Positions 53,935 through 64,000 are shown, numbered from the stretch's first letter. The stretch is 64,000 bases of DNA from Candidatus Amesbacteria bacterium RIFCSPLOWO2_01_FULL_48_25 (GCA_001773695.1 MEXN01000003.1:25547-89546), one strand, 5' to 3'. Notes: generated by a model not told the origin, from the sequence alone. Numbers and translations are program-made.

Positions 53935-54875
53935 ATGACGTTTTCGCGGGGAGCGTTCCAGGTGAGGTTGTGAATCTCACAGTTGATCATGAGACTACTG
54001 ACCCTCTTGGTGTAATTGGGGTCTTTTTTAGATTTGGCTGAAATACGAGAAAAAAGTCTGTTTCTCAGACCGTGGCTGATACCCATAGTAGAAATAGAGG
54101 TGACAGTTTCAAACTCCGGATACGTATAAGAGACTTGTTCCACATCGAGGATATGGATCTTTTTACCGCGGAGATAGATATTTCTGAAATTCAGATCACC
54201 ATGAACAAGCGTGGATTGATAATAACCTGTGAAAGCCGAAATGTTTTTGACAAATACCCAAATACCGCGAAGAATATCCAAGAATAAATTGGGGTGCTCG
54301 AAAATTGCGGCGATGGTGATTAGGGGCAGTATGCATAAATATTCCCCGATGAGTTTATGGCGGAACTGGGATACTTCAAGTCTGGTCATGTGGCGACCCA
54401 AAAATCTTAAATAGCCAACTACTTGATTGTGTATTTGGATCTGACGACGTGAATCATGGACTTTCGCCAGTGGTTTACCCAAAATAAATTTTGTTCCTAA
54501 AATTAATTTATGTTTTTCGTGGCGGGAGAAAGCCACGTTAGGTATGGAAAGTGCTTTGTACTTTGGTGGGAGAATATGGGCGACCCGGTCGTGGACATTG
54601 TTTAAGATTTGGATTGAGGTAAGCTGATGAAGCAGGTCATAATAATGGATGTCTTTTCTCTTGCCAGTCCAAATCTTCATAACAACCCGCAACCCTAACG
54701 GGTCTTGATATAGGCCCACTTTGAATGGAAAATGTTTTTCCGGTTGCAAATCACGAATTAACTTGAAGCGATCAATATGTTGGGGCATCTGCCTGGGAAC
54801 GTCCCGAAACCTTTTTTCGAATAGGCTGTTGTATAAATAACTAAAAATGATATTGACAAGCTTACTGATATTCAT
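53886..54875 (-). CDS. Protein-kinase-like fold phosphotransferase (APH/ChoK/Kdo-kinase-like)
   Basis: 329 aa. Catalytic-loop-like LVHGDLNFRNIYL (HGDxxxxN), then IHILDVEQVSY, which is DxE/DFG-like. Confidence 0.5.
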   Translation of the reverse strand: MNISKLVNIIFSYLYNSLFEKRFRDVPRQMPQHIDRFKLIRDLQPEKHFPFKVGLYQDPLGLRVVMKIWTGKRKDIHYYDLLHQLTSIQILNNVHDRVAHILPPKYKALSIPNVAFSRHEKHKLILGTKFILGKPLAKVHDSRRQIQIHNQVVGYLRFLGRHMTRLEVSQFRHKLIGEYLCILPLITIAAIFEHPNLFLDILRGIWVFVKNISAFTGYYQSTLVHGDLNFRNIYLRGKKIHILDVEQVSYTYPEFETVTSISTMGISHGLRNRLFSRISAKSKKDPNYTKRVSSLMINCEIHNLTWNAPRENVIWYTNLLKKGISLSPV

Positions 54876-57800
54876 ATGCTGGTTGATGGCTTAGGGGAAC
54901 ATCAATTTCGGGAACTAGGAGAAGTTTGACTGCCTCTAAAAAAGACCGTGATTGTGATTCCCAGGAGAATTGGCGAGACCAGGCTTGAGAATTTTTGGAA
55001 AAATATTTGAGGATCGAGGGGCGGTGAATCAGGGATTTAATCGTATTTGCCAAGGTATATGGATCAAGGGGGGGAACCAGGATACCGGTTTGGTTGTGGC
55101 GAACCGAATCGCGAAGACCAATTACATCCGAGGCGATGGCGGGAGTGCCACAAGCGTTGGCTTCGATGACGGTAATCCCCCACCCTTCGAACGAACTGGG
55201 CTGAAGCATGGCCCAAGATTGGGACAACAACTGGACTTTTTCTTTCTCCGTCACCCGGCCGAGAAAATAAACATTATTACTTAAGTTTAAATCTTCGGCG
55301 AGGTGCCGCAATTCTTTTATCCCCTCACCGACTCCGGCAATGTTCAGCCGGGCTTTGGGATGATCACGAACCACTTGAGAGAAAGCCCGAATAGCCACGT
55401 CTATATTTTTGTACGGGCGGATCCGGCCCACATAAACAAACGATGGATTTTTTGTTTTTGGCGCTTTGCGGATGTACTCCCTAAGAGTAATCCCGGGATT
55501 AACTATGGTGATATCTTCCGGACGGCTTAAACCGATGCGGACGATGTCGTTTTTGGAGGATTCGGAGACAGTAATAATCTTTTGGTTATGGTAGACAAGG
55601 GGCATGAGACGGGATTCCAAAGCCATGGCAAACTGAGCCACGGGAAAGGGCAGACGGCCCTGGAAAATTATTTTATCCTGATGGATGTGATGGATGAGGA
55701 GAATTTTGGGAATACGGGCGAATAGTGGAGTAAAAAATGGGATACCGTTTTCAGAGTCGATAACAATGTCAAATCGGTTCCGAAGACGCAACAAATAATA
55801 TATTACAGCCCAGAAATAGACTGTGTAAAAACCGCCATGGCGAATGATTTTCACTCCGTCGATTGTTTCCTTGCGGGGACAATTGCCGTCATTGCCGCAA
55901 AAAATGGTGACCGTATGGCCCTGGGCAGCCCAACGCTTGCCAAGCTCGTGAATATAGACCTCGGCGCCGCCGGCCCATTTATGGCGGATGTCCCGCCAGT
56001 TGAAAATTAGAATCCGGAGAGAATCCGATTTGGATGGGGAAAGTTCGCGAGGAAAAAAGCGGATCAATAAATCCCATAGATCCCTGATGTTGTTGGTCAC
56101 CGACCAGGAAAACTGGTAATAGAAATGGAGCATGAGAAAACTGCCCAGGTAAACTAAACTTAAAACCAGCATGACAGTGACTAAATCCGCAAGACTTGAA
56201 TGGAAAAAGTAGACTAAAACCGGTTGGAGGGAAGCTAAAATGAAGCCTAAAATGGGAAAGACATATTGGCGACGGGCTTGGTGATAATTGACGATACTAC
56301 CAGACAGGGTGAAGTTGACCATGGCCAGGCAGTACCAGGTTAACAAGGGGATGACGGAAATGATCTTCGGGCCGAAAAGAAGAGGAGCGAAAATTGACCC
56401 CAATGGCCCCAAAGCGACAAAGCCCATGATACTGGTAACGCTATTGCCCAGCAACAGGCGGTAAAACAGCGGCTTGGGATTGGCACCTTCCCCCTCGGCC
56501 CGACTGACTACGGGGATGATGAATGGATCAAATAAAGAGCCTAGAAAATAAACAATTTTACCGGCTAACGATATCAGAACATATTGACCGGCGATAGCGG
56601 GAGGTAAATAGATTTTGGCTAAGATTACGTCCAAACTCAAAAACGCCAGAGATGAAAGCTTGATAAGAATCGAGGTGCTAAAAAACCGAAAGGGGAAATG
56701 GGGTGCTGATTGCAGGGTCTTTGTGGCAACTATTTGGGGTTTGATAGCTCTGACTGCCAACCAACAGACTGCGAGAGCGGCGACTAATGAGAGAGGGTGA
56801 GAAGCGTATATATATTGGGGCCAACCCAAGCGGACAAAAAAGACGGCGAAAGCAAACTTGGATACAGATTCGACAGTGACCATAGCAGCAAGTACCGCAA
56901 ACCGGTGATGGCCAGCTAGGAATCCCCGATTCGTGGCCACTAAGGCAGTCGCTAACCATAACGGGGTGATAAGGAAAAACGGAGTCGTATTGCCGTTTGC
57001 TTGGAAAACCCGGGACATCCACGGAATGACCGCGATCCAGACGGCTGTCACTCCTAGCGAAATATACAAAACCCGACTTTTGATAAAGTTCCAAAAGTGG
57101 TTTACATAACGGTTCTTTTGACCCAAAAGAAATGCTACCCGGTGCGAGAGAGTTTTGGAGAGAGCGGTGGTAGGGATTTGCACCAAATAGGCAATACTAC
57201 CCATTAGGCCCACCAGACTGAATTCTTCTATGGAAATGGCCCGACCCAAATATATGTTGTAGAGAAAATTGAAAAAATTGCTGAGCATGGTAGAGGCTAC
57301 CAGAAGCGTGCCTCCCTTAAGTAAGGGTTGGGGTAGAACTCCCAGCCGTCCAAATTGATGAGAAACAAAGTTCCTCAGGCTTGAGAGCCAGGACTGACGG
57401 GCTTCTTTGGAAACTTCGAACAAATGGAGACCGTGGTGGGTTTTTTCCCAGTAATAGGGACGGAATACCAACTGCCAGAATGCCTTGAAAGCTGCTAGGC
57501 TTATAAACAGCCAGTAGAGGGGGACGGCAAATACGTATTTGACCAATTCCCACCGGCCGCGTTTGGCACAGCCAATCATGTAGTAATAGAGGTAGAGAAA
57601 ATTGCCGAAAATAGCGGAGAAGGCAGCCAGATAAAAGATGGCGGCGGGATAGAGGGACTCGATAGTGGGTCCGACATATTTATAAAGAGCAAAATAAGAA
57701 ATTGTCGCCAGCCACAAGAAGGGGTTAATAAGCATAAATGCGATCCGGCCGCCGACGATAAGCTGAAAAATTAGAGCGTGCCAACCGTGGGACTTTAAAA

Positions 57801-59571
57801 ACCTTAAGGGATGGCGATTATGAACAAAAAAGGTTTGCAGGTAGCCCTTGATCCAGCGGGAGCGCTGACGTAACCAGTTACCAAGATCGCTGTTGGCTTC
57901 CTCCAGAGTTGTGGAGTCAATAATGGCGGTGGTGTAGCCTTCTTTAAACAGTCTGGCGCCCAGATCGCAGTCCTCAGTAACATTGAAGGCGTCCCAGCCG
58001 TGGAGACTTTTTAAAATGGTGGTTCGGAAATGATTTGAAGTCCCGCCTAATGGAATAGTGGTCCCCAGTGACTGAAGGCCGGGGAGGACAACGTCGAACC
58101 AGAGGGAATACTCGGTAGTGAATAATCGGGTCAAAAGGTTGTGGTGGGGATTGTAGTAATTGAGTTTGGCTTGGAGGCACGCGGTTTGGGGAGGGACGCG
58201 GTGAGTAAAAGTGAAATACGCCTTTTTGAGTTGGTCCGGCTCGGGACGGTCCTCCGCATCATAGATGACGATGTATTCTCCTGTGGCCCGGGATAGGCCA
58301 TAATTGCAGGCTTTGGGTTTGGTCTTGGGATTCGAATGAGGGACAACGACGACGTGGAAGTAGTCCGGGAGAGCCAAGTTTTTAGCTGCTTCCCGCGTTT
58401 GGTGATCGTCTTCTTCCAGAAGCAGAAGAACTTCCAGTTTATCTTTGGGCCAGTCCAGCTGAGAAATGTTTTCTACAAACTGAGGCAGGACCCGGGCCTC
58501 GTGATAGAGGGGGCAAAGAATCGTGTAAACAGGGAGTTTATCAGTTGCCCAGTTTTGCAGTTGAGCCACTGAAATGGAGATTTCAGGGGGTGACTTGAGA
58601 CTTCTGTAAATTAAAATGAAGTTGAAAACAACGTCGGCAAAATAAATGGCTGAGAGCAGGCCAACAAGAGTGATGGCTGTAGACTGCGGCCAGAGGAGAA
58701 AGCTGACGGACATTAGAGCGAGAGCGCCCAGAAGAGCTAGTTTTTGAAGTCGATGTAGGGTCACTATGGCGGAGTAGTGATGCGGCAGGGTGGAGTGAGT
58801 AACATAGCCGCGACGACGGTAGATCATACCGGCTCCGGCCATTGAACTGTTTGAGGCTGGTGGCAGGGAATAGATTTTTCCGGGCGAAAATCGCAATCTT
58901 ATGGCGGTGGTACTAATTTCTCTGGCGGCTTGAAAAAATTCTGACCGGGCTTGAGATGATCCGGACTCCCTGGGTGTAAAGGTGATGGGAACGACCCCTA
59001 TTGAGTAACCCAATTCACGGGCTGTATGCAGAAGCGGCATGTCTATCGCCCATGCTCTGACGTCACTTTCGGATAGATGGACGGCAACTTCCCGCCGGAA
59101 AAGTTTTAACCCCGATTGGACATCGCAGTTCAGCCCCAGAAGTAGTCGGCCAAAGATAAAGGTGTTTAGGTGGGAACCAATTTTACGTAACAGTGAGGAA
59201 TGGGACTTGGTCCGGTTGGCGACCACGACACCATGGACGGCAAGCTGGGGATACATCTGAGGGATGGCTTCAGGAGGATATTCCAAGTCCCCGTCAATCA
59301 TGGCCATAAAAGGAGCGGAACTTGCACGAATGCCTTCGATAATGGAAAAGGCCTTCCCACGCATCCCTCTTTTCACAACCAATCTTATGGGGTACTTTTG
59401 GGAAAGTCGGGTGATAAGTTCGCGGGTGTCATCTGTAGAGTGGTCGTCGACAAAAATTATTGAGTATGGAATCTTGGCTTTTTGCAGGCTGGAATTTATG
59501 CGGCGGGTAAGTTCAACTAGACTGGCCTCTTCGTTATAGACGGGGACGATGATATCTAATCTTCTGGACAT
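54862..59571 (-). CDS. Giant multidomain glycosyltransferase (1569 aa): GT2 (DPM1-like), TM helices, processive GT2 (QxxRW), TM bundle with MOP/Wzx-like domain, then GT4
   Basis: A single uninterrupted ORF. Residues 1-230 are DPM1-like (IIVPVYNEEASL..IIFVDDHSTDDT..AMIDGDLEYPP). About 340-620 is synthase-like GT2 (YDAEDRPEPDQL...TEDCDLGARL...QRSRWIKGYLQ). The central region has more than 15 TM helices and includes GRAISIEEFSLVGLMGSIAYL, which is a Wzx-like loop. The C-terminal ~400 aa is GT4 (ILIFNWRDIRHKWAGGAEVYIHEL...QPSSFEGWGITVIEANACGTPAIASD). Confidence 0.75.
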   Translation of the reverse strand: MSRRLDIIVPVYNEEASLVELTRRINSSLQKAKIPYSIIFVDDHSTDDTRELITRLSQKYPIRLVVKRGMRGKAFSIIEGIRASSAPFMAMIDGDLEYPPEAIPQMYPQLAVHGVVVANRTKSHSSLLRKIGSHLNTFIFGRLLLGLNCDVQSGLKLFRREVAVHLSESDVRAWAIDMPLLHTARELGYSIGVVPITFTPRESGSSQARSEFFQAAREISTTAIRLRFSPGKIYSLPPASNSSMAGAGMIYRRRGYVTHSTLPHHYSAIVTLHRLQKLALLGALALMSVSFLLWPQSTAITLVGLLSAIYFADVVFNFILIYRSLKSPPEISISVAQLQNWATDKLPVYTILCPLYHEARVLPQFVENISQLDWPKDKLEVLLLLEEDDHQTREAAKNLALPDYFHVVVVPHSNPKTKPKACNYGLSRATGEYIVIYDAEDRPEPDQLKKAYFTFTHRVPPQTACLQAKLNYYNPHHNLLTRLFTTEYSLWFDVVLPGLQSLGTTIPLGGTSNHFRTTILKSLHGWDAFNVTEDCDLGARLFKEGYTTAIIDSTTLEEANSDLGNWLRQRSRWIKGYLQTFFVHNRHPLRFLKSHGWHALIFQLIVGGRIAFMLINPFLWLATISYFALYKYVGPTIESLYPAAIFYLAAFSAIFGNFLYLYYYMIGCAKRGRWELVKYVFAVPLYWLFISLAAFKAFWQLVFRPYYWEKTHHGLHLFEVSKEARQSWLSSLRNFVSHQFGRLGVLPQPLLKGGTLLVASTMLSNFFNFLYNIYLGRAISIEEFSLVGLMGSIAYLVQIPTTALSKTLSHRVAFLLGQKNRYVNHFWNFIKSRVLYISLGVTAVWIAVIPWMSRVFQANGNTTPFFLITPLWLATALVATNRGFLAGHHRFAVLAAMVTVESVSKFAFAVFFVRLGWPQYIYASHPLSLVAALAVCWLAVRAIKPQIVATKTLQSAPHFPFRFFSTSILIKLSSLAFLSLDVILAKIYLPPAIAGQYVLISLAGKIVYFLGSLFDPFIIPVVSRAEGEGANPKPLFYRLLLGNSVTSIMGFVALGPLGSIFAPLLFGPKIISVIPLLTWYCLAMVNFTLSGSIVNYHQARRQYVFPILGFILASLQPVLVYFFHSSLADLVTVMLVLSLVYLGSFLMLHFYYQFSWSVTNNIRDLWDLLIRFFPRELSPSKSDSLRILIFNWRDIRHKWAGGAEVYIHELGKRWAAQGHTVTIFCGNDGNCPRKETIDGVKIIRHGGFYTVYFWAVIYYLLRLRNRFDIVIDSENGIPFFTPLFARIPKILLIHHIHQDKIIFQGRLPFPVAQFAMALESRLMPLVYHNQKIITVSESSKNDIVRIGLSRPEDITIVNPGITLREYIRKAPKTKNPSFVYVGRIRPYKNIDVAIRAFSQVVRDHPKARLNIAGVGEGIKELRHLAEDLNLSNNVYFLGRVTEKEKVQLLSQSWAMLQPSSFEGWGITVIEANACGTPAIASDVIGLRDSVRHNQTGILVPPLDPYTLANTIKSLIHRPSILKYFSKNSQAWSRQFSWESQSRSFLEAVKLLLVPEIDVPLSHQPAYEYQ

Positions 59572-59746: not shown

Positions 59747-60511
59747 CTATGGGATATGGGAAGGATGGGAGAAAAGCACTAAAGATAGGCCTAAACCCAC
59801 AAGTCCGATAGATATTAAAATTGCGGCGAGCCAGTTGTGGCTGGATGTAGAGGTGGATAAAATTTCTGGAGTAGGATCAGTTTTCACAAGCAATGTTGGC
59901 TCGGCTTCACGGAAGGTGGCTAGGACCTTTTCTTCTGGACCAACTGATATCGACAGTGTGGGAATGATTGTAAATTTAGGTAATGGAGTAGGAGTGGGAG
60001 TAGGTTTGGGAGTGGAGGTGGGTGGCTTGGGGGTTGAGGTGGGCGCTGGGGCGGAAGTTGGGGGAATAGAAGTGGGGGTGGGAGAGGGACCCGTAACAGT
60101 AATGGGCAACGAAGATGATGTCTGCGCAAAGCTGTCTCCACTTGCGGTATAACGGCCGAGTTTGAAAAAGTAACTACCTGGAGGTTTTTGCGGGTCAAAC
60201 TTGAATTTTAATTTGCCACTATAGCTTCCTTCTTCTATTTTAAAATATTGGGTTTTGTCGTCTGACGTGGAAATCCACTGCCCTGCATTATTTAGTGAGA
60301 AGCCTGAATAGGTATGACTGGATTCGGGATAAAAAAAGACACCCCGCAAGTAAGAGATGCCGCAAGATGTACAATCTAACGTGGCATCGGCTTCAAATTC
60401 CTGGTCAACATTGATAGATGGAGGAAGATTGTTAAGGGTAAGAGCGATCTCTGCTGAGATAGTGGTGGGGGTGAGGAGAAAAAGGAGAAAGGCAATCCCC
60501 CACCGGGTCAT
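59747..60511 (-). CDS. Secreted/surface protein with Pro/Thr-rich linker and C-terminal TM anchor
   Basis: 254 aa. Signal peptide, a ~130-aa globular region, a PT-rich linker (PSPTPTSIPPTSAPAPTSTPKPPTSTPKPTPTPTP), then the C-terminal TM helix WLAAILISIGLVGLGLSLVLF. Confidence 0.45.
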   Translation of the reverse strand: MTRWGIAFLLFLLTPTTISAEIALTLNNLPPSINVDQEFEADATLDCTSCGISYLRGVFFYPESSHTYSGFSLNNAGQWISTSDDKTQYFKIEEGSYSGKLKFKFDPQKPPGSYFFKLGRYTASGDSFAQTSSSLPITVTGPSPTPTSIPPTSAPAPTSTPKPPTSTPKPTPTPTPLPKFTIIPTLSISVGPEEKVLATFREAEPTLLVKTDPTPEILSTSTSSHNWLAAILISIGLVGLGLSLVLFSHPSHIP

Positions 60512-60527
60512 GAAAAAAACTATATCA

Positions 60528-61607
60528 CTATTGGACGTGTAGGTATAAAGTCTTTAGGCCGGAGCCGTGGTCTATGTACTTGATTTTCAGCTCGGAGGCG
60601 CCGCATTTGCCGGTATATGAGTAGAGAATGCCGTCTGCCGGGGCCCGGATAACTGCGTCGGAACTGACCATGTCAATACCGGTGTGAATACCGCCACTAT
60701 ATATGTATCTATAAGAATAGGGGGTTTTGCCGTAGCGCTGGGTGATTTCGATCGACCCATTTAGCGGCCAGTTCCAGTTACCCGAGCCGATTTTTAAGCC
60801 CCATTTGTCGGTTATGGGTTTTAGATAGGTCTCGGCGTTGACCCAAGTATCATTTACCCGGACCTCGAAATGCAAGTGGGTGCCGGTGGAGCAACTGGGA
60901 TAGCCGGAGTTGCCCATGACGGCAATGGCATCCCCGGCCTTGACCGGACCTTGCCTAGTGGCCAGAGCCAGAGCCTTTTCCAAAGCTTCTAATTCCAGGC
61001 GGGCCTGTTCCAACTGATGTTGATAAACCGCCTCGTCGTTTTTGGTCTCTTTAAGAAGATTATCCCGGTCGGTCCGAAGCGAGGCTAAAGAGGCTTTTTG
61101 AGTTTTAAGCCGCTCCCGGGAATCTTCGAGAAGCAGTTTCTGCTGGGCGTAGTTTGATTGAACTACTTGGGTATCGTGGAGAAACCGACGATTATGGGCT
61201 TGAACGGATTGTAGATACTTGAAGCGGGATAGAGTTTGGGAAAAATTGATGGTGGATAAAAATAGTTGAAAATGGTTGGCCCCACCTTGTTTGTAAGTCT
61301 GGACGATCTGGCGTTCCAAAATTACAGTTCGTTTTTGCAAGCGGTCTTCCAGAATATTTATTTTGGACCCGATCGAGTCGATTAATTCTTCACTTTGAGA
61401 GATTTTGAGCGTGGCAAGAACTATTTGGTTGTCATAATAGGCAATTTGGCCCGCTAGAGTCTTGGCCTTGGACTGAAGTTCAGTAACTTTTTTTTCCAGT
61501 TCTTCTATCTGACGCTGCTTGTCTGAGAGGGAGTCGGCCCGGGCTATAGGCAAAGTAAGCAAGGAAAACAAAAGGAGGCAAAGACAGGCAAAGACTAATT
61601 TTTTCAT
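60528..61607 (-). CDS. M23 family metallopeptidase with N-terminal coiled coil (EnvC-like). The M23 segments appear in permuted order.
   Basis: Start trimmed to MKKLVFACLCLLLFSLL at 61607, giving an ATGA overlap with the ftsX stop. Signal peptide, a ~200-aa coiled coil, then GNSGYPSCSTGTHLHFEV (the HxH motif), followed by GGIHTGIDMV (the HxxxD motif) and TLYLHVQ. This is the reverse of the usual M23 order. Confidence 0.65.
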   Translation of the reverse strand: MKKLVFACLCLLLFSLLTLPIARADSLSDKQRQIEELEKKVTELQSKAKTLAGQIAYYDNQIVLATLKISQSEELIDSIGSKINILEDRLQKRTVILERQIVQTYKQGGANHFQLFLSTINFSQTLSRFKYLQSVQAHNRRFLHDTQVVQSNYAQQKLLLEDSRERLKTQKASLASLRTDRDNLLKETKNDEAVYQHQLEQARLELEALEKALALATRQGPVKAGDAIAVMGNSGYPSCSTGTHLHFEVRVNDTWVNAETYLKPITDKWGLKIGSGNWNWPLNGSIEITQRYGKTPYSYRYIYSGGIHTGIDMVSSDAVIRAPADGILYSYTGKCGASELKIKYIDHGSGLKTLYLHVQ

Positions 61608-62482
61608 CCTTTGAGGAAACGGTAGACGGCCATGGCTCCCCCGAATCCTCCCACGAGAGTACCCAAACCCACCAACCCGCCCAAAAGACTTATCATTGAA
61701 GTTGGCGACGGAGGGAGAGTGACAATGCCTGACAAGAAACCGGCCCAAAAACCTGTGGAGTAAAGAATCACCAGGTAGGAGATGCCCCAGGCCAAAACGG
61801 CTCCCAATACCCCGTAAATTATGCCCTCGAAGATAAAGGGGGCAGAAATGTAGGCAGGAGTGGCGCCGACTAATTGGAGAAGGGAAATTTCGTCTCTTCG
61901 CCCCGAAACCTTGATCCCCACGACCAACAGGATAACGGTAAAAGTAATGAAGATATGGATGCCAACCAGGACGGCTCCGGTGGTGCGGATTGAGCTGATC
62001 CAACGGTTTAGTGTCCCGACTACGTCTTCGGCAAAACGAACGTCCTCGATACCCGGTTCTTTTTTCAAAATGTCTGCTAATTGCTTGAGGTCGCGGGGAT
62101 TTTTGGCCGAAATTTCAACCGAGGCCGGTAAAAGGTTGGCGGTGACGGCTTCTGTTAGCAGGGGATCGTTTTGGTTGAGGTCTTTGTATATTTTCAGGGC
62201 GTCTTCTTTGGAAATATAACGGACTGATTCAACTAGGCCAGTATTAGTAAGATGAGAGGTAATCAAATTGACCTGGTCGGATGACGGGGTGAGGTCTATT
62301 TGGAAAAAGCCGTTAATTTGGGGACGGGTCTCGAAGTATTTCAGGACCAGGTTGCTACCCATGGCTAAAATGACAAAAAAGCCGGCTAAAAAAAGCGACA
62401 TAGTCATGATAGAAATTGCCGATATGGCCTGGTACGGGGATCTGCGGATACGTTGCCAAGCGAGGTTTAGGTGCTTAATCAT
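61604..62482 (-). CDS. ftsX: Cell division permease FtsX
   Basis: 292 aa with 4 TM helices and a large extracytoplasmic loop after TM1. Located immediately downstream of ftsE. Confidence 0.8.
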   Translation of the reverse strand: MIKHLNLAWQRIRRSPYQAISAISIMTMSLFLAGFFVILAMGSNLVLKYFETRPQINGFFQIDLTPSSDQVNLITSHLTNTGLVESVRYISKEDALKIYKDLNQNDPLLTEAVTANLLPASVEISAKNPRDLKQLADILKKEPGIEDVRFAEDVVGTLNRWISSIRTTGAVLVGIHIFITFTVILLVVGIKVSGRRDEISLLQLVGATPAYISAPFIFEGIIYGVLGAVLAWGISYLVILYSTGFWAGFLSGIVTLPPSPTSMISLLGGLVGLGTLVGGFGGAMAVYRFLKG

Positions 62483-63152
62483 ATTTGCCCTTGGGAGAAT
62501 CTTTGGAAATTCGGCCTTCGTCTAATGAAATTACTCGCTGGGAAAAGCTATTGACGATATCAGCGTTGTGGGTGGCCATAATCACAGTGGTTTTCAACTC
62601 GGAGTGGATGTCTTTAAGAAGCTTGACGATGTTTTTTCCGGTTTTGGGATCCAGATTGCCGGTGGGCTCATCAGCCAGCAATAACCTGGGTCGACCGACG
62701 ATGGCCCGGGCCAGGGCCACGCGCTGCAACTCGCCCCCGGACAATTGGGAAGGAAACATGGAAGAACGGGGGGTGAGACCGACTAGTTCTAATGCGACTT
62801 TGGCAGCTGATCTGATCTTGGCTGGGGGAATACCCCGAACTTCCAAGGGCAGAGAGACATTTTCCCAGACGTTTCTATCTGACAATAGCTTGAAATCCTG
62901 GAAGACTACGCCAATTGTGCGGCGAAGCGAGGGTAATTTGGATCCTGGGAGCTTGGAGACTTCCTGGTTGTCCACCTGGATCGTGCCGGAATCTGGCTTG
63001 AGATCACGGTAAATGAGACGCAGAAGGGTTGTCTTTCCGGATCCGGACGGGCCGGTGAGAAAGACGAACTCACCTGTCGGAATTTCTAAAGTGAGATCTT
63101 GCAAGGCGAGAATACTCCCAAATTTTTTAGTCAGATTCTTGGCAGTGACCAT
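62475..63152 (-). CDS. ftsE: Cell division ATP-binding protein FtsE
   Basis: 225 aa. Walker A GPSGSGKTT, ABC signature LSGGELQRVALARA, Walker B LLLADEPTGNLD. Confidence 0.9.
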   Translation of the reverse strand: MVTAKNLTKKFGSILALQDLTLEIPTGEFVFLTGPSGSGKTTLLRLIYRDLKPDSGTIQVDNQEVSKLPGSKLPSLRRTIGVVFQDFKLLSDRNVWENVSLPLEVRGIPPAKIRSAAKVALELVGLTPRSSMFPSQLSGGELQRVALARAIVGRPRLLLADEPTGNLDPKTGKNIVKLLKDIHSELKTTVIMATHNADIVNSFSQRVISLDEGRISKDSPKGKYD

Positions 63153-63178: not shown

Positions 63179-63619
63179 TTATTCAAGAATTTTGAGGCGG
63201 CCGACGTCCATGAGCCAGCCGACGCGTTGAGCCCGGATAGTTTCGCCCCAAACCTGGACCTTTTTACCCAAGTATTGCTCTAAATCAACGATTGACGAGA
63301 TGAGGTAAACGGTTTGGGAGGGGCCGCCGTCGCGAGTGAGGTGGTGGGTACCTTCCCCGTTTGATCCCCCGGTCTCTAGGGTACCGGTAGCAGTATCACG
63401 AAAAGTTTGAGTGTCGGTGGAACCTATTTCTGTGGCTGATTTGACCATGGCGGGAGTGGCAGAGGAAGAGTTTGTTTTACCATTTTGAGGAGCCTGAGTT
63501 AATAAAAATCCGACAACTGCGCCAGAAATGATCAAAACCGCGGCTCCTATAATTAGAAGCGCCTTGGGGGGGAGGTTGGACTTGGAAGATAAATCGTGGA
63601 GCAATTCACCCTCTGGCAT
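63179..63619 (-). CDS. Hypothetical membrane-anchored protein
   Basis: 146 aa. N-terminal TM helix (LLIIGAAVLIISGAVVGFLL), a T/S-rich linker and a small C-terminal domain. Confidence 0.35.
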   Translation of the reverse strand: MPEGELLHDLSSKSNLPPKALLIIGAAVLIISGAVVGFLLTQAPQNGKTNSSSATPAMVKSATEIGSTDTQTFRDTATGTLETGGSNGEGTHHLTRDGGPSQTVYLISSIVDLEQYLGKKVQVWGETIRAQRVGWLMDVGRLKILE

Positions 63620-63642: not shown

Positions 63643-64000
63643 TTATCCCAACTGTCTGAGTTGGGCGTCTATGAACATGTCCAGATCACCATCTAAGACG
63701 GCTTCGGCCTGGGAGGTTTCCACACCGGTGCGCAGATCTTTAACGAGTTTGTAGGGGTGAAGAACGTAAGACCGGATTTGATTGCCCCAACTGGCTGCCT
63801 TGTATTCTCCTTTGAGCTGTTTTTGAGTTTCGTCTCGCTGTTGTTGTTGTCTGTCCCACAACTTGGCTTTTAAGAGAGATAGGGCGATTTTGCGATTTTG
63901 TTCTTGGAAACGCTGGGTTTGACAGGCGACTGAGATGCCGGTCGGTTTGTGGGTCAGGCGGACAGCGGTGCTAACTTTGTTGACGTTTTGACCACCATGA
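63643..64000 (-). CDS. prfB: Peptide chain release factor 2 (RF2). C-terminal part only; the N-terminus lies beyond the window end.
   Basis: Hand translation of 64000 down to 63862 gives [47 protein letters not shown] (the GGQ motif). The ORF-track tail [44 protein letters not shown] is RF2-type (IRSYV...KDLRTGVET). Confidence 0.85.

What the first reader, a model, noticed from the sequence alone, without database searches (positions are those of the whole stretch)
60528..61607. EnvC-like coiled-coil M23 peptidase downstream of ftsEX with its catalytic motifs in permuted order
The conserved ftsE-ftsX-envC arrangement is present, with ATGA coupling between ftsX and the peptidase. Canonical M23 domains have HxxxD first and HxH (STGPHLHFE) near the C-terminus. 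Here the STGTHLHFEV segment directly follows the coiled coil. The N-terminal-type half (GKTPYSYRYIYSGGIHTGIDMV ... GSGLKTLYLHVQ) comes last, and the ORF stops right after it. This suggests either a circular permutation of the M23 fold or a rearrangement, duplication remnant or misassembly. Both metal-ligand motifs are intact, so unlike E. coli EnvC it may be catalytically active.
Basis: seen in the sequence. Interest (0 to 1): 0.5.

Follow-up and report, generated by a model that had tools for sequence, protein, structure and literature searches.

The report
Circularly permuted M23 peptidase behind ftsEX
The cell-division wall-cutting enzyme encoded after ftsE-ftsX in this ultra-small (CPR, Amesbacteria-like) bacterium has its M23 catalytic domain stitched together in swapped order, a real arrangement conserved in hundreds of species that I could not find described anywhere.

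Summary
The ORF at 60528-61607 (-) encodes 359 aa: a signal peptide, an EnvC/PcsB-like coiled-coil hairpin, then an M23/LytM domain in circularly permuted order. The HxH-bearing C-terminal third (aa 216-263) comes first. The HxxxD...YxH two-thirds (aa 280-359) come last, and the protein stops two residues after the third catalytic His.

Pfam and PDB alignments show a seamless wrap-around. An artificially re-permuted sequence gives one full-length M23 hit.

All 120 closest homologues and 80/80 species-level loci share the order. At least 291 genomes carry a relative: Microgenomates lineages, WWE3 and other CPR. 68/80 loci have ftsE-ftsX directly upstream. All five catalytic or metal residues are invariant, so I predict an active, FtsEX-controlled endopeptidase rather than an EnvC-type activator.

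Other CPR lineages carry the canonical order at the same locus. In one syntenic genome pair, one genome has the canonical and the other the permuted module.

No paper or curated model describing a permuted M23 was found. Verdict: new variant of a known kind, of moderate to high interest.

The parts
62475..63152 (-). ftsE (ABC ATPase), overlaps ftsX by 8 nt
   Evidence: Pfam ABC_tran 124 bits. Conserved upstream in 68/80 related loci.
61604..62482 (-). ftsX (FtsX extracellular domain + permease domain). Its stop overlaps the peptidase start codon as ATGA.
   Evidence: Pfam FtsX_ECD 53.7 bits, FtsX 39.5 bits. Sequence.
60528..61607 (-). Whole gene for the 359-aa coiled-coil, circularly permuted M23 peptidase (stop TAG at 60528-60530)
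   Evidence: Homologues of 354-382 aa with the same ends.
61536..61607 (-). Signal peptide, aa 1-24 (MKKLVFACLCLLLFSLLTLPIARA|D)
   Evidence: Read from the translation. Helix 2-17 in the model. The cleavage site is inferred from the AxA rule, not predicted with a dedicated tool.
60963..61535 (-). Coiled-coil hairpin, aa 25-215 (helices 27-47, 51-107, tip 112-117, 119-188, 192-215). The last helix runs straight into the first strand of the catalytic domain.
   Evidence: AlphaFold full-length model. Foldseek best PDB hits are EnvC in the FtsEX complex (8tzl_E, E 1.6e-5), EnvC (6tpi_A) and RipC (8idc_E). Pfam CC_PcsB at aa 83-147, 23 bits, below the cut-off of 27.
60819..60962 (-). C-type segment of M23 placed first, aa 216-263 (GPVKAGDAIAVMGNSGYPSCSTGTHLHFEV...YL). 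Contains HxH (H244, H246; nt 60870-60878) and C239 (nt 60891-60893).
   Evidence: Pfam profile positions 60-95. PDB 3slu residues 297-343.
60771..60818 (-). New connection joining the old C-terminus to the old N-terminus, aa 264-279 (KPITDKWGLKIGSGNW). This is the only length-variable part of the domain in the family.
   Evidence: Indel-rich columns in alignment A1. Modelled with pLDDT 95-97.
60531..60770 (-). N-type segment of M23 placed last, aa 280-359 (WPLNG...HTGID...YLHVQ-stop). Contains H308 and D312 (nt 60672-60686), C335 (nt 60603-60605) and H357 (nt 60537-60539).
   Evidence: Pfam profile positions 2-52. PDB 3slu residues 230-295. 178/223 permuted relatives end exactly 2 residues after this His.

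Best explanation
The gene encodes the secreted partner of the FtsEX cell-division ABC complex in a CPR bacterium of the Microgenomates (Amesbacteria-like).

It has the architecture of EnvC, PcsB and RipC: a signal peptide, a long antiparallel coiled-coil hairpin that should dock on the FtsX extracellular domains, and a C-terminal hydrolase domain. That domain is a naturally circularly permuted M23/LytM metallopeptidase.

Compared with the canonical-order protein at the same locus in another CPR lineage (Berkelbacteria-like; P0272, locus L083), the last ~50 residues of the domain now sit between the coiled coil and the rest of the domain. These residues are the GD-hairpin plus the HxH strand. 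The chain ends two residues after the third catalytic histidine.

No residues are lost at the cut. The Zn ligands (H308, D312, H246), the two water-activating His (H244, H357) and a conserved Tyr before HxxxD (Y301 and Y303 are each conserved in at least 90% of sequences; either could be the LytM Y204 equivalent) are all kept.

The protein is therefore most likely an active peptidoglycan endopeptidase. Its access to the wall would be gated by FtsE ATP-driven movements passed through FtsX and the coiled coil, as proposed for PcsB, CwlO and RipC. It is less likely to be an EnvC-type catalytically dead amidase activator.

Shown: the permuted order, its seamlessness, its conservation, the gene context, the intact motifs, and a confident compact model.

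Inferred: retention of the M23 three-dimensional fold, Zn binding, enzymatic activity, FtsX binding, and regulation by FtsEX.
For: Permutation:
- The two Pfam pieces are complementary, and the re-permuted construct gives a single hit over profile 2-95/96 at 53.5 bits.
- The PDB 3slu alignment wraps around seamlessly.
- BLASTP against canonical P0272 is collinear through the coiled coil. It then skips window aa 223-271, aligns aa 272-358 to P0272 246-334, and aligns aa 240-262 separately to P0272 367-389.

Conservation:
- 120/120 homologues at 45-77% identity share the order.
- At least 291 GTDB species encode a relative of the domain. The best 80 loci all match collinearly over 138-154 of its 154 residues, and all end Y[LF]H[VI][QRK]-stop.
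- 96 of 148 cluster representatives at 50% identity are permuted.

Context:
- ftsE-ftsX lies immediately upstream in 68/80 loci.
- The canonical-order protein lies in ftsE-ftsX-X synteny in L083.

Catalytic residues:
- H244, H246, H308, D312 and H357 are invariant.
- Their roles are taken from the M23 review PMC9662197.

Structure:
- The domain model has pLDDT 94.1 and pTM 0.89.
- The full-length model's best PDB match is EnvC in the FtsEX complex.

The FtsEX-EnvC mechanism and its predicted extension to direct hydrolases are from PMC7668044.
Against: - No coordinates could be exported, so I could not run a permutation-aware superposition on a solved M23 structure.
- Activity, metal binding and FtsX binding are untested.
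- 8 informative loci lack ftsEX directly upstream.
- The AlphaFold full-length model is only moderately confident in how the domain sits on the coiled coil (pTM 0.53).
Confidence: 0.8

Rival explanations
1. The protein is permuted but works like EnvC. It would be a regulator that activates a separate amidase or other hydrolase, not an enzyme that cuts peptidoglycan itself.
For: Overall architecture and gene position equal those of EnvC, and the best structural match is EnvC in FtsEX-EnvC. LytM domains often act as activators (PMC7668044).
Against: EnvC-type activators have lost the metal ligands. Here all five catalytic residues are invariant across very divergent members, which indicates selection for catalysis. 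The NCBIfam EnvC model scores 25.7 bits against a cut-off of 270.
Confidence: 0.12
2. The two segments do not fold into one M23 domain within a chain. They would complement each other between chains (a domain-swapped dimer) or adopt a different fold.
For: Order-dependent structure searches give only weak or partial M23 matches. I could not inspect coordinates.
Against: The monomer model is compact and highly confident, including the new connection (pLDDT 94; 95-97 over the connection). The wrap-around is seamless and no residue is lost, as expected if the old neighbours still pack together. The C-terminal length is almost fixed.
Confidence: 0.06
3. The order is an assembly error, a private rearrangement, or two overlapping ordinary M23 hits (a duplication remnant).
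For: None beyond the unusual order itself.
Against: The same order and the same ends occur in 120/120 homologues and 80/80 species loci from many independent assemblies and sequencing projects. There is one copy of each motif, and the profile ranges are complementary. The 16-nt gap before the next gene leaves no space for a remnant.
Confidence: 0.01

Closest known systems
EnvC (E. coli / V. cholerae murein hydrolase activator; PDB 6tpi, 8tzl)
   Same: Signal peptide, antiparallel coiled-coil hairpin, C-terminal LytM/M23 domain, and a gene next to ftsEX. It is the best structural match of the full-length model.
   Different: EnvC has the canonical domain order, a degenerate active site and a separate ~50-residue restraining-arm helix, and it acts by activating AmiA/AmiB. 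Here the domain is permuted, all catalytic residues are intact, and the last helix runs straight into the domain. The NCBIfam EnvC score is far below its cut-off.
PcsB (S. pneumoniae), CwlO (B. subtilis), RipC (mycobacteria): FtsEX-controlled direct hydrolases
   Same: A coiled-coil partner of FtsX that carries an active hydrolase domain at its C-terminus. There is a weak Pfam CC_PcsB match at the hairpin tip and a RipC structural match. This is the mechanism I propose.
   Different: Their catalytic domains are CHAP or NlpC/P60 cysteine peptidases, not M23 metallopeptidases.
Canonical-order coiled-coil M23 proteins of other CPR lineages (e.g. P0202 from Berkelbacteria, P0272, Parcubacteria P0296, Falkowbacteria P0369)
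   Same: They have the same length class and the same coiled coil + M23 design. P0272 sits in the same ftsE-ftsX-X synteny. They share the unusual 'PY.YRY' insert before HxxxD. They are the likely ancestral state.
   Different: Domain order is N-type then C-type: 111 of 119 homologues of P0202. They lack the Cys pair.
LytM / lysostaphin-type M23B catalytic domains (Pfam PF01551)
   Same: H(x)3D, HxH and the third His are present, as is the GD-hairpin. The whole-protein Pfam score is above the gathering threshold (48 against 28.7).
   Different: The linear order of the motifs is reversed, so the third His lies 111 residues after HxH instead of about 30 before it. Neither the family definition nor the 2022 review mentions any permuted form.
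Circularly permuted NlpC/P60 families (LRAT-like, YaeF/poxvirus G6R)
   Same: They are a precedent for a peptidoglycan-hydrolase superfamily with natural circular permutants in which catalytic residues swap order (PMC6403190).
   Different: They have a different fold and chemistry (a Cys-His peptidase).

Membership tests
Peptidase M23 / LytM domain (Pfam PF01551, MEROPS M23B) | Profile score above Pfam's gathering threshold | tested here: met
   48 bits against 28.7, summed over two stretches.
Peptidase M23 / LytM domain (Pfam PF01551, MEROPS M23B) | H(x)nD and HxH zinc/catalytic motifs, plus the third His (LytM H260 equivalent) | tested here: met
   H308-x3-D312, H244-x-H246 and H357 are all invariant in alignments A1 and A2. 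Definitions are from PMC9662197.
Peptidase M23 / LytM domain (Pfam PF01551, MEROPS M23B) | Canonical linear order: H(x)nD, then the third His, then HxH about 30 residues later | tested here: not met
   The order is HxH (244), HxxxD (308), third His (357). Only a re-permuted sequence gives one full-length profile match.
Peptidase M23 / LytM domain (Pfam PF01551, MEROPS M23B) | M23 three-dimensional fold with all ligands around one Zn | tested here: inconclusive
   [not shown]
Peptidase M23 / LytM domain (Pfam PF01551, MEROPS M23B) | Zn-dependent endopeptidase activity on peptidoglycan cross-bridges or stem peptides | not testable with these tools
   Needs biochemistry.
EnvC (murein hydrolase activator, NCBIfam NF008644) | Equivalog model score above its cut-off | tested here: not met
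   25.7 bits against 270, and only the coiled coil matches.
EnvC (murein hydrolase activator, NCBIfam NF008644) | Catalytically degenerate LytM domain that activates amidases | tested here: not met
   All catalytic residues are intact and invariant. Amidase activation itself is not testable here.
EnvC (murein hydrolase activator, NCBIfam NF008644) | Coiled-coil hairpin + LytM architecture, encoded with ftsEX | tested here: met
FtsEX-dependent cell-wall hydrolases (functional class: PcsB, CwlO, RipC, EnvC) | Secreted coiled-coil protein with a C-terminal hydrolase domain, genetically linked to ftsEX | tested here: met
   ATGA overlap with ftsX. Linkage in 68/80 loci. Structural matches to EnvC and RipC in their FtsEX complexes.
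FtsEX-dependent cell-wall hydrolases (functional class: PcsB, CwlO, RipC, EnvC) | Physical binding to the FtsX extracellular domain and ATPase-dependent activation | not testable with these tools
   Needs pull-down or reconstitution experiments.

The most novel reading that the evidence does not exclude
The permutation may be an adaptive re-wiring of the FtsEX-to-hydrolase coupling rather than a neutral topological curiosity.

The last coiled-coil helix is fused without a linker to the beta-hairpin that leads into the HxH strand. The chain ends two residues after the third catalytic His. The regulatory helix and both chain ends therefore sit at the active centre. FtsEX-driven motion of the helix could then directly assemble or distort the catalytic site, acting as a built-in mechanical switch that replaces a separate restraining arm.

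In addition, canonical and permuted catalytic modules appear to have been exchanged, or re-invented, at orthologous ftsEX loci within CPR lineages. In L083 and L084 the coiled coils are 54% identical but the catalytic halves only 26-34%. This implies recurrent modular replacement or several independent permutation events.
Probability: 0.2. Interest if true: 0.8.

Novelty: new variant of a known kind. Interest (0 to 1): 0.6.

Why it matters
M23/LytM domains are among the most studied peptidoglycan hydrolases: lysostaphin, LytM, EnvC, NlpD, ShyA and the Csd proteins. The family is defined by the fixed order H(x)nD...HxH, and I found no report of a permuted form.

- **Natural experiment.** A large, conserved clade of natural circular permutants shows that the fold tolerates a new chain topology with the termini next to the active site. 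This is useful for engineering lysostaphin-like enzybiotics and fusions.
- **FtsEX mechanism.** The attachment point of the FtsEX-binding coiled coil moves from the distal N-terminal strand to the catalytic core. That makes the question of how FtsEX transmits force to its hydrolase testable in a second topology.
- **Phylogenetic marker.** The trait is a clean, discrete character for Microgenomates/WWE3-type CPR lineages against the canonical Berkelbacteria/Parcubacteria-type ones.

Tried and rejected
- **Misassembly, duplication remnant, overlapping hits.** Rejected on conservation and single-copy motifs.
- **AFDB search.** Foldseek against afdb50 was not available.
- **Foldseek PDB search with the domain model.** It gave no significant hit. 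It is uninformative except as a sign of non-canonical topology.
- **Model coordinates.** They are not exposed, so no CE-CP or TM-align -cp style superposition could be run and the distance between C239 and C335 could not be measured.
- **Literature.** Searches on 'circular permutation/permuted' combined with M23, LytM, lysostaphin or FtsEX, and on Microgenomates + M23, found nothing relevant. The 2022 M23 review has no occurrence of 'permut'.
- **Single or multiple origin of the permutation.**
  - A neighbour-joining tree of re-permuted domains puts most permuted sequences apart from the main canonical CPR clade, but a few canonical sequences are interspersed and there are no support values.
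  - Half-by-half BLAST of the divergent 'YGHM' permuted subtype gives equal scores to permuted and canonical relatives.
  - The question is unresolved.
- **Evolutionary intermediates (coiled coil + C-N-C or N-C-N-C).** None were found. Tandem M23 x2 proteins exist only in unrelated BlaR1-M56 or LysM architectures.
- **Cluster look-ups for taxon names of divergent members.** These returned almost no names.
- **NCBIfam.** No specific model exists.

Full report
**What is in the window**

On the minus strand, ftsE (62475-63152), ftsX (61604-62482) and a 359-codon ORF (60528-61607) follow each other with overlapping stop and start codons. The overlap is 8 nt between ftsE and ftsX, and ATGA between ftsX and the ORF. 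Pfam identifies ABC_tran in the first gene and FtsX_ECD + FtsX in the second.

The third product starts with a typical signal peptide (MKKLVFACLCLLLFSLLTLPIARA|D). Long helices follow up to residue 215, then a beta-rich domain.

- Pfam Peptidase_M23 hits the protein in two stretches (48 bits, cut-off 28.7). Residues 219-257 match the end of the profile (positions 60-95 of 96). The C-terminal part matches the beginning (positions 2-52).
- I cut the domain and re-joined it in canonical order. The same residues then gave one uninterrupted match to profile positions 2-95 (53.5 bits).
- Against the solved M23 protein NMB0315 (PDB 3slu), query 295-358 aligns to chain 230-295 and query 214-263 to chain 297-343. 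The C-terminus of the protein and the first residues after the coiled coil are therefore direct neighbours in a canonical M23 sequence. Nothing is missing and nothing is duplicated.
- HLH is at aa 244-246, HTGID at aa 308-312, and the chain ends ...YLH(357)VQ-stop.
- A six-frame scan of the whole window with HMMs of the two halves finds each half once only. The next gene begins 16 nt after the stop.

**It is a conserved family, not an artefact**

- A search of 5.8 billion proteins gave 837 hits. The 120 best (45-77% identity, lengths mostly 354-382 aa) come from many independent metagenome assemblies. Those that carry a name are labelled mostly Candidatus Amesbacteria or Microgenomates.
- All 120 have HxH before HxGxD, and nearly all end in ...YLHVQ.
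- A scan of one genome per GTDB species found at least 291 species encoding a relative. The best 80 all match collinearly over 138-154 of the 154 domain residues. Their labels are Amesbacteria, Gottesmanbacteria, Woesebacteria, Collierbacteria, Roizmanbacteria, 'Microgenomates', WWE3, and some generic or obviously placeholder names.
- In all 80 the ORF ends Y[LF]H[VI][QRK]-stop.
- In 68 of the 80, ftsE and ftsX lie directly upstream on the same strand. Four of the other twelve have too little upstream sequence to tell.
- An exhaustive HMMER search of 1.84 billion cluster representatives with the domain alone returned 148 new representatives (P0121-P0268) among its best 150. Of these, 96 are permuted and 26 canonical. 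A few permuted domains sit at the C-terminus of giant proteins of 1118-2174 aa.
- Of 223 permuted proteins collected, 178 end exactly two residues after the third catalytic His, and 21 end three residues after it.

**Catalytic equipment**

The M23 review (PMC9662197) defines the family as follows. Zn is bound by the His and Asp of H(x)nD and by the second His of HxH. The first His of HxH and a further His about 30 residues upstream (LytM H260) activate water. A Tyr before H(x)nD stabilises the oxyanion.

The equivalents here are H308, D312, H246, H244 and H357, and all are invariant in both family alignments. Y301 and Y303, just before H308, are each conserved in at least 90% of sequences. Either could be the Tyr equivalent.

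E. coli EnvC, in contrast, lacks the catalytic residues and works by activating amidases (PMC7668044). The NCBIfam EnvC equivalog scores 25.7 bits against a cut-off of 270, and no other NCBIfam model passes.

**Structure**

- AlphaFold2 on the 154-residue domain with a 35-sequence family alignment gives pLDDT 94.1 and pTM 0.89. This includes the new connection between the old C- and N-termini (pLDDT 95-97). Only the Tyr-rich loop before HTGID is softer.
- Foldseek finds no significant hit at all.
- I could not obtain coordinates, so the three-dimensional equivalence of the whole domain is inferred, not shown.
- The full-length model (pLDDT 81.9) has helices 27-47, 51-107, 112-117, 119-188 and 192-215. 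The last helix enters the first strand (217-222) after a single residue.
- Its best PDB matches are V. cholerae EnvC inside the FtsE/FtsX/EnvC complex (E 1.6e-5), E. coli EnvC bound to FtsX, and RipC in FtsEX/RipC.

**Relation to canonical relatives**

- The nearest canonical-order proteins found are coiled-coil M23 proteins of other CPR lineages. P0202 is annotated as Candidatus Berkelbacteria. Of 119 homologues of P0202, 111 have the canonical order. The few with a taxon label are Berkelbacteria, Parcubacteria, Falkowbacteria or 'Patescibacteria group'.
- They share the unusual 'PY.YRY' insert before HxxxD.
- P0272 (75% identical to P0202) lies in SecA-ftsE-ftsX-[coiled-coil M23]-CtpB-L9-x-LemA-M48. 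The canonical protein therefore occupies the same position behind ftsEX.
- BLASTP of the window protein against P0272 is collinear through the coiled coil. It then opens a 49-residue gap exactly over window aa 223-271 and continues with aa 272-358 against P0272 246-334. The skipped HLHFEV segment aligns separately to P0272 367-389. In plain terms, the last ~50 residues of the domain have moved to its front.

**A canonical/permuted pair at one locus**

Locus L084 has the same extended synteny as L083. Its flanking proteins are 51-77% identical to those of L083 (the poorly conserved ~500-aa protein between L9 and LemA is 39%), and its coiled coil is 54% identical. Its catalytic domain, however, is permuted (P0277, ending ...LYGHML), and the corresponding halves are only 34% and 26% identical.

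So within one lineage the catalytic module differs in topology while the rest of the gene and its neighbourhood are orthologous. Three readings remain open:
- replacement by a permuted module from elsewhere;
- a second, independent permutation;
- fast divergence after the event.

I could not decide among them. The neighbour-joining tree and the half-wise BLAST are inconclusive.

No intermediate (coiled coil + C-N-C or tandem domains) was found. Tandem M23 x2 proteins do exist in unrelated BlaR1-M56 or LysM architectures, and they match the permuted query collinearly across the C-half of copy 1 and the N-half of copy 2. This illustrates the classical duplication-and-trimming route.

**Mechanism proposed**

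By analogy with FtsEX-EnvC, PcsB, CwlO and RipC, the coiled-coil hairpin binds the two FtsX extracellular domains, and ATP binding or hydrolysis by FtsE changes its conformation. Because the active site is intact, the output should be direct cleavage of peptidoglycan peptides at the division site.

The permutation places helix 192-215 and both chain ends beside the catalytic His357/HxH region. The near-fixed two-residue tail suggests steric or functional constraint there. Whether the helix acts as a built-in restraining element is speculation.

**Novelty**

Full-text searches found no description of a permuted M23/LytM domain. The known precedent for permutation among wall hydrolases is NlpC/P60. 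Database names for family members are generic: 'peptidoglycan DD-metalloendopeptidase family protein', 'CwlO-like', 'septal ring factor EnvC'.

I therefore rate it a new variant of a known kind. It is real, widespread and apparently unreported, with moderate to high interest for people working on cell-wall hydrolases, FtsEX and protein topology.

Noticed in passing
window aa C239 (nt 60891-60893) and C335 (nt 60603-60605); alignments A1 and A2: The permuted domain has exactly two cysteines, in the loop before HxH (YPSCSTG) and in the GKCG loop. They are invariant in the Microgenomates-type family (80/80 loci). Across 352 domains they co-occur: among permuted domains 174 have both, 25 neither and 24 one; among canonical domains 127 have neither. 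This suggests a disulfide or other paired role that accompanies the permuted clade. One canonical 652-aa protein (P0257) also has both.
   Followed up: partly
L083 (4001-5176) versus L084 (3712-4953): Two syntenic CPR loci (SecA-ftsE-ftsX-X-CtpB-L9-x-LemA-M48) carry a canonical (P0272) and a permuted (P0277) catalytic module respectively. They sit behind coiled coils that are 54% identical, yet the catalytic halves are only 26-34% identical. This points to module replacement or an independent permutation.
   Followed up: partly
P0141 (1256 aa), P0186 (2174 aa), P0261 (1118 aa), P0174/P0391 (894 and 2492 aa): Permuted M23 domains also occur at or near the C-terminus of giant proteins without the EnvC-like coiled coil. 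One carries TSP3 repeats and one an Exo_endo_phos domain. The permuted module has therefore been reused in other architectures.
   Followed up: partly
[not shown]
   Followed up: yes
window 59747-60511 (-): The gene 16 nt downstream of the peptidase encodes a 254-aa protein with a signal peptide, a Pro/Thr-rich linker and a C-terminal membrane anchor. It has no Pfam match and is possibly co-transcribed with ftsEX-peptidase.
   Followed up: no
window 54862-59571 (-): A 1569-aa single ORF fuses GT2, a second GT2 (Glyco_tranf_2_3), a polysaccharide-synthesis/flippase-like membrane region and a GT4/GT1 domain. This is an unusually large all-in-one glycan synthesis protein.
   Followed up: partly
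window 63179-63619 (-) and 63643-63999 (-): Upstream of ftsE lie a 146-aa membrane-anchored ORF with no Pfam match and the C-terminal RF-1 domain of a peptide chain release factor. The listed ORF for the release factor starts only at 63861.
   Followed up: no
P0225 (228 aa): This canonical M23 protein has an exact internal repeat of a ~47-residue stretch spanning the end of the N-type segment and the C-type segment (TTLYAHNSKLVV...HAHFEVRINGK). It is either an assembly artefact or a fresh partial duplication of the kind that could seed a permutation.
   Followed up: no
loci L002, L003, L005, L008 and many others: Many MAG records titled 'uncultured Gammaproteobacteria' or 'Pseudomonadales' carry this CPR-specific gene in CPR-type ftsEX synteny. 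Those titles look like placeholder or wrong taxonomic labels.
   Followed up: no
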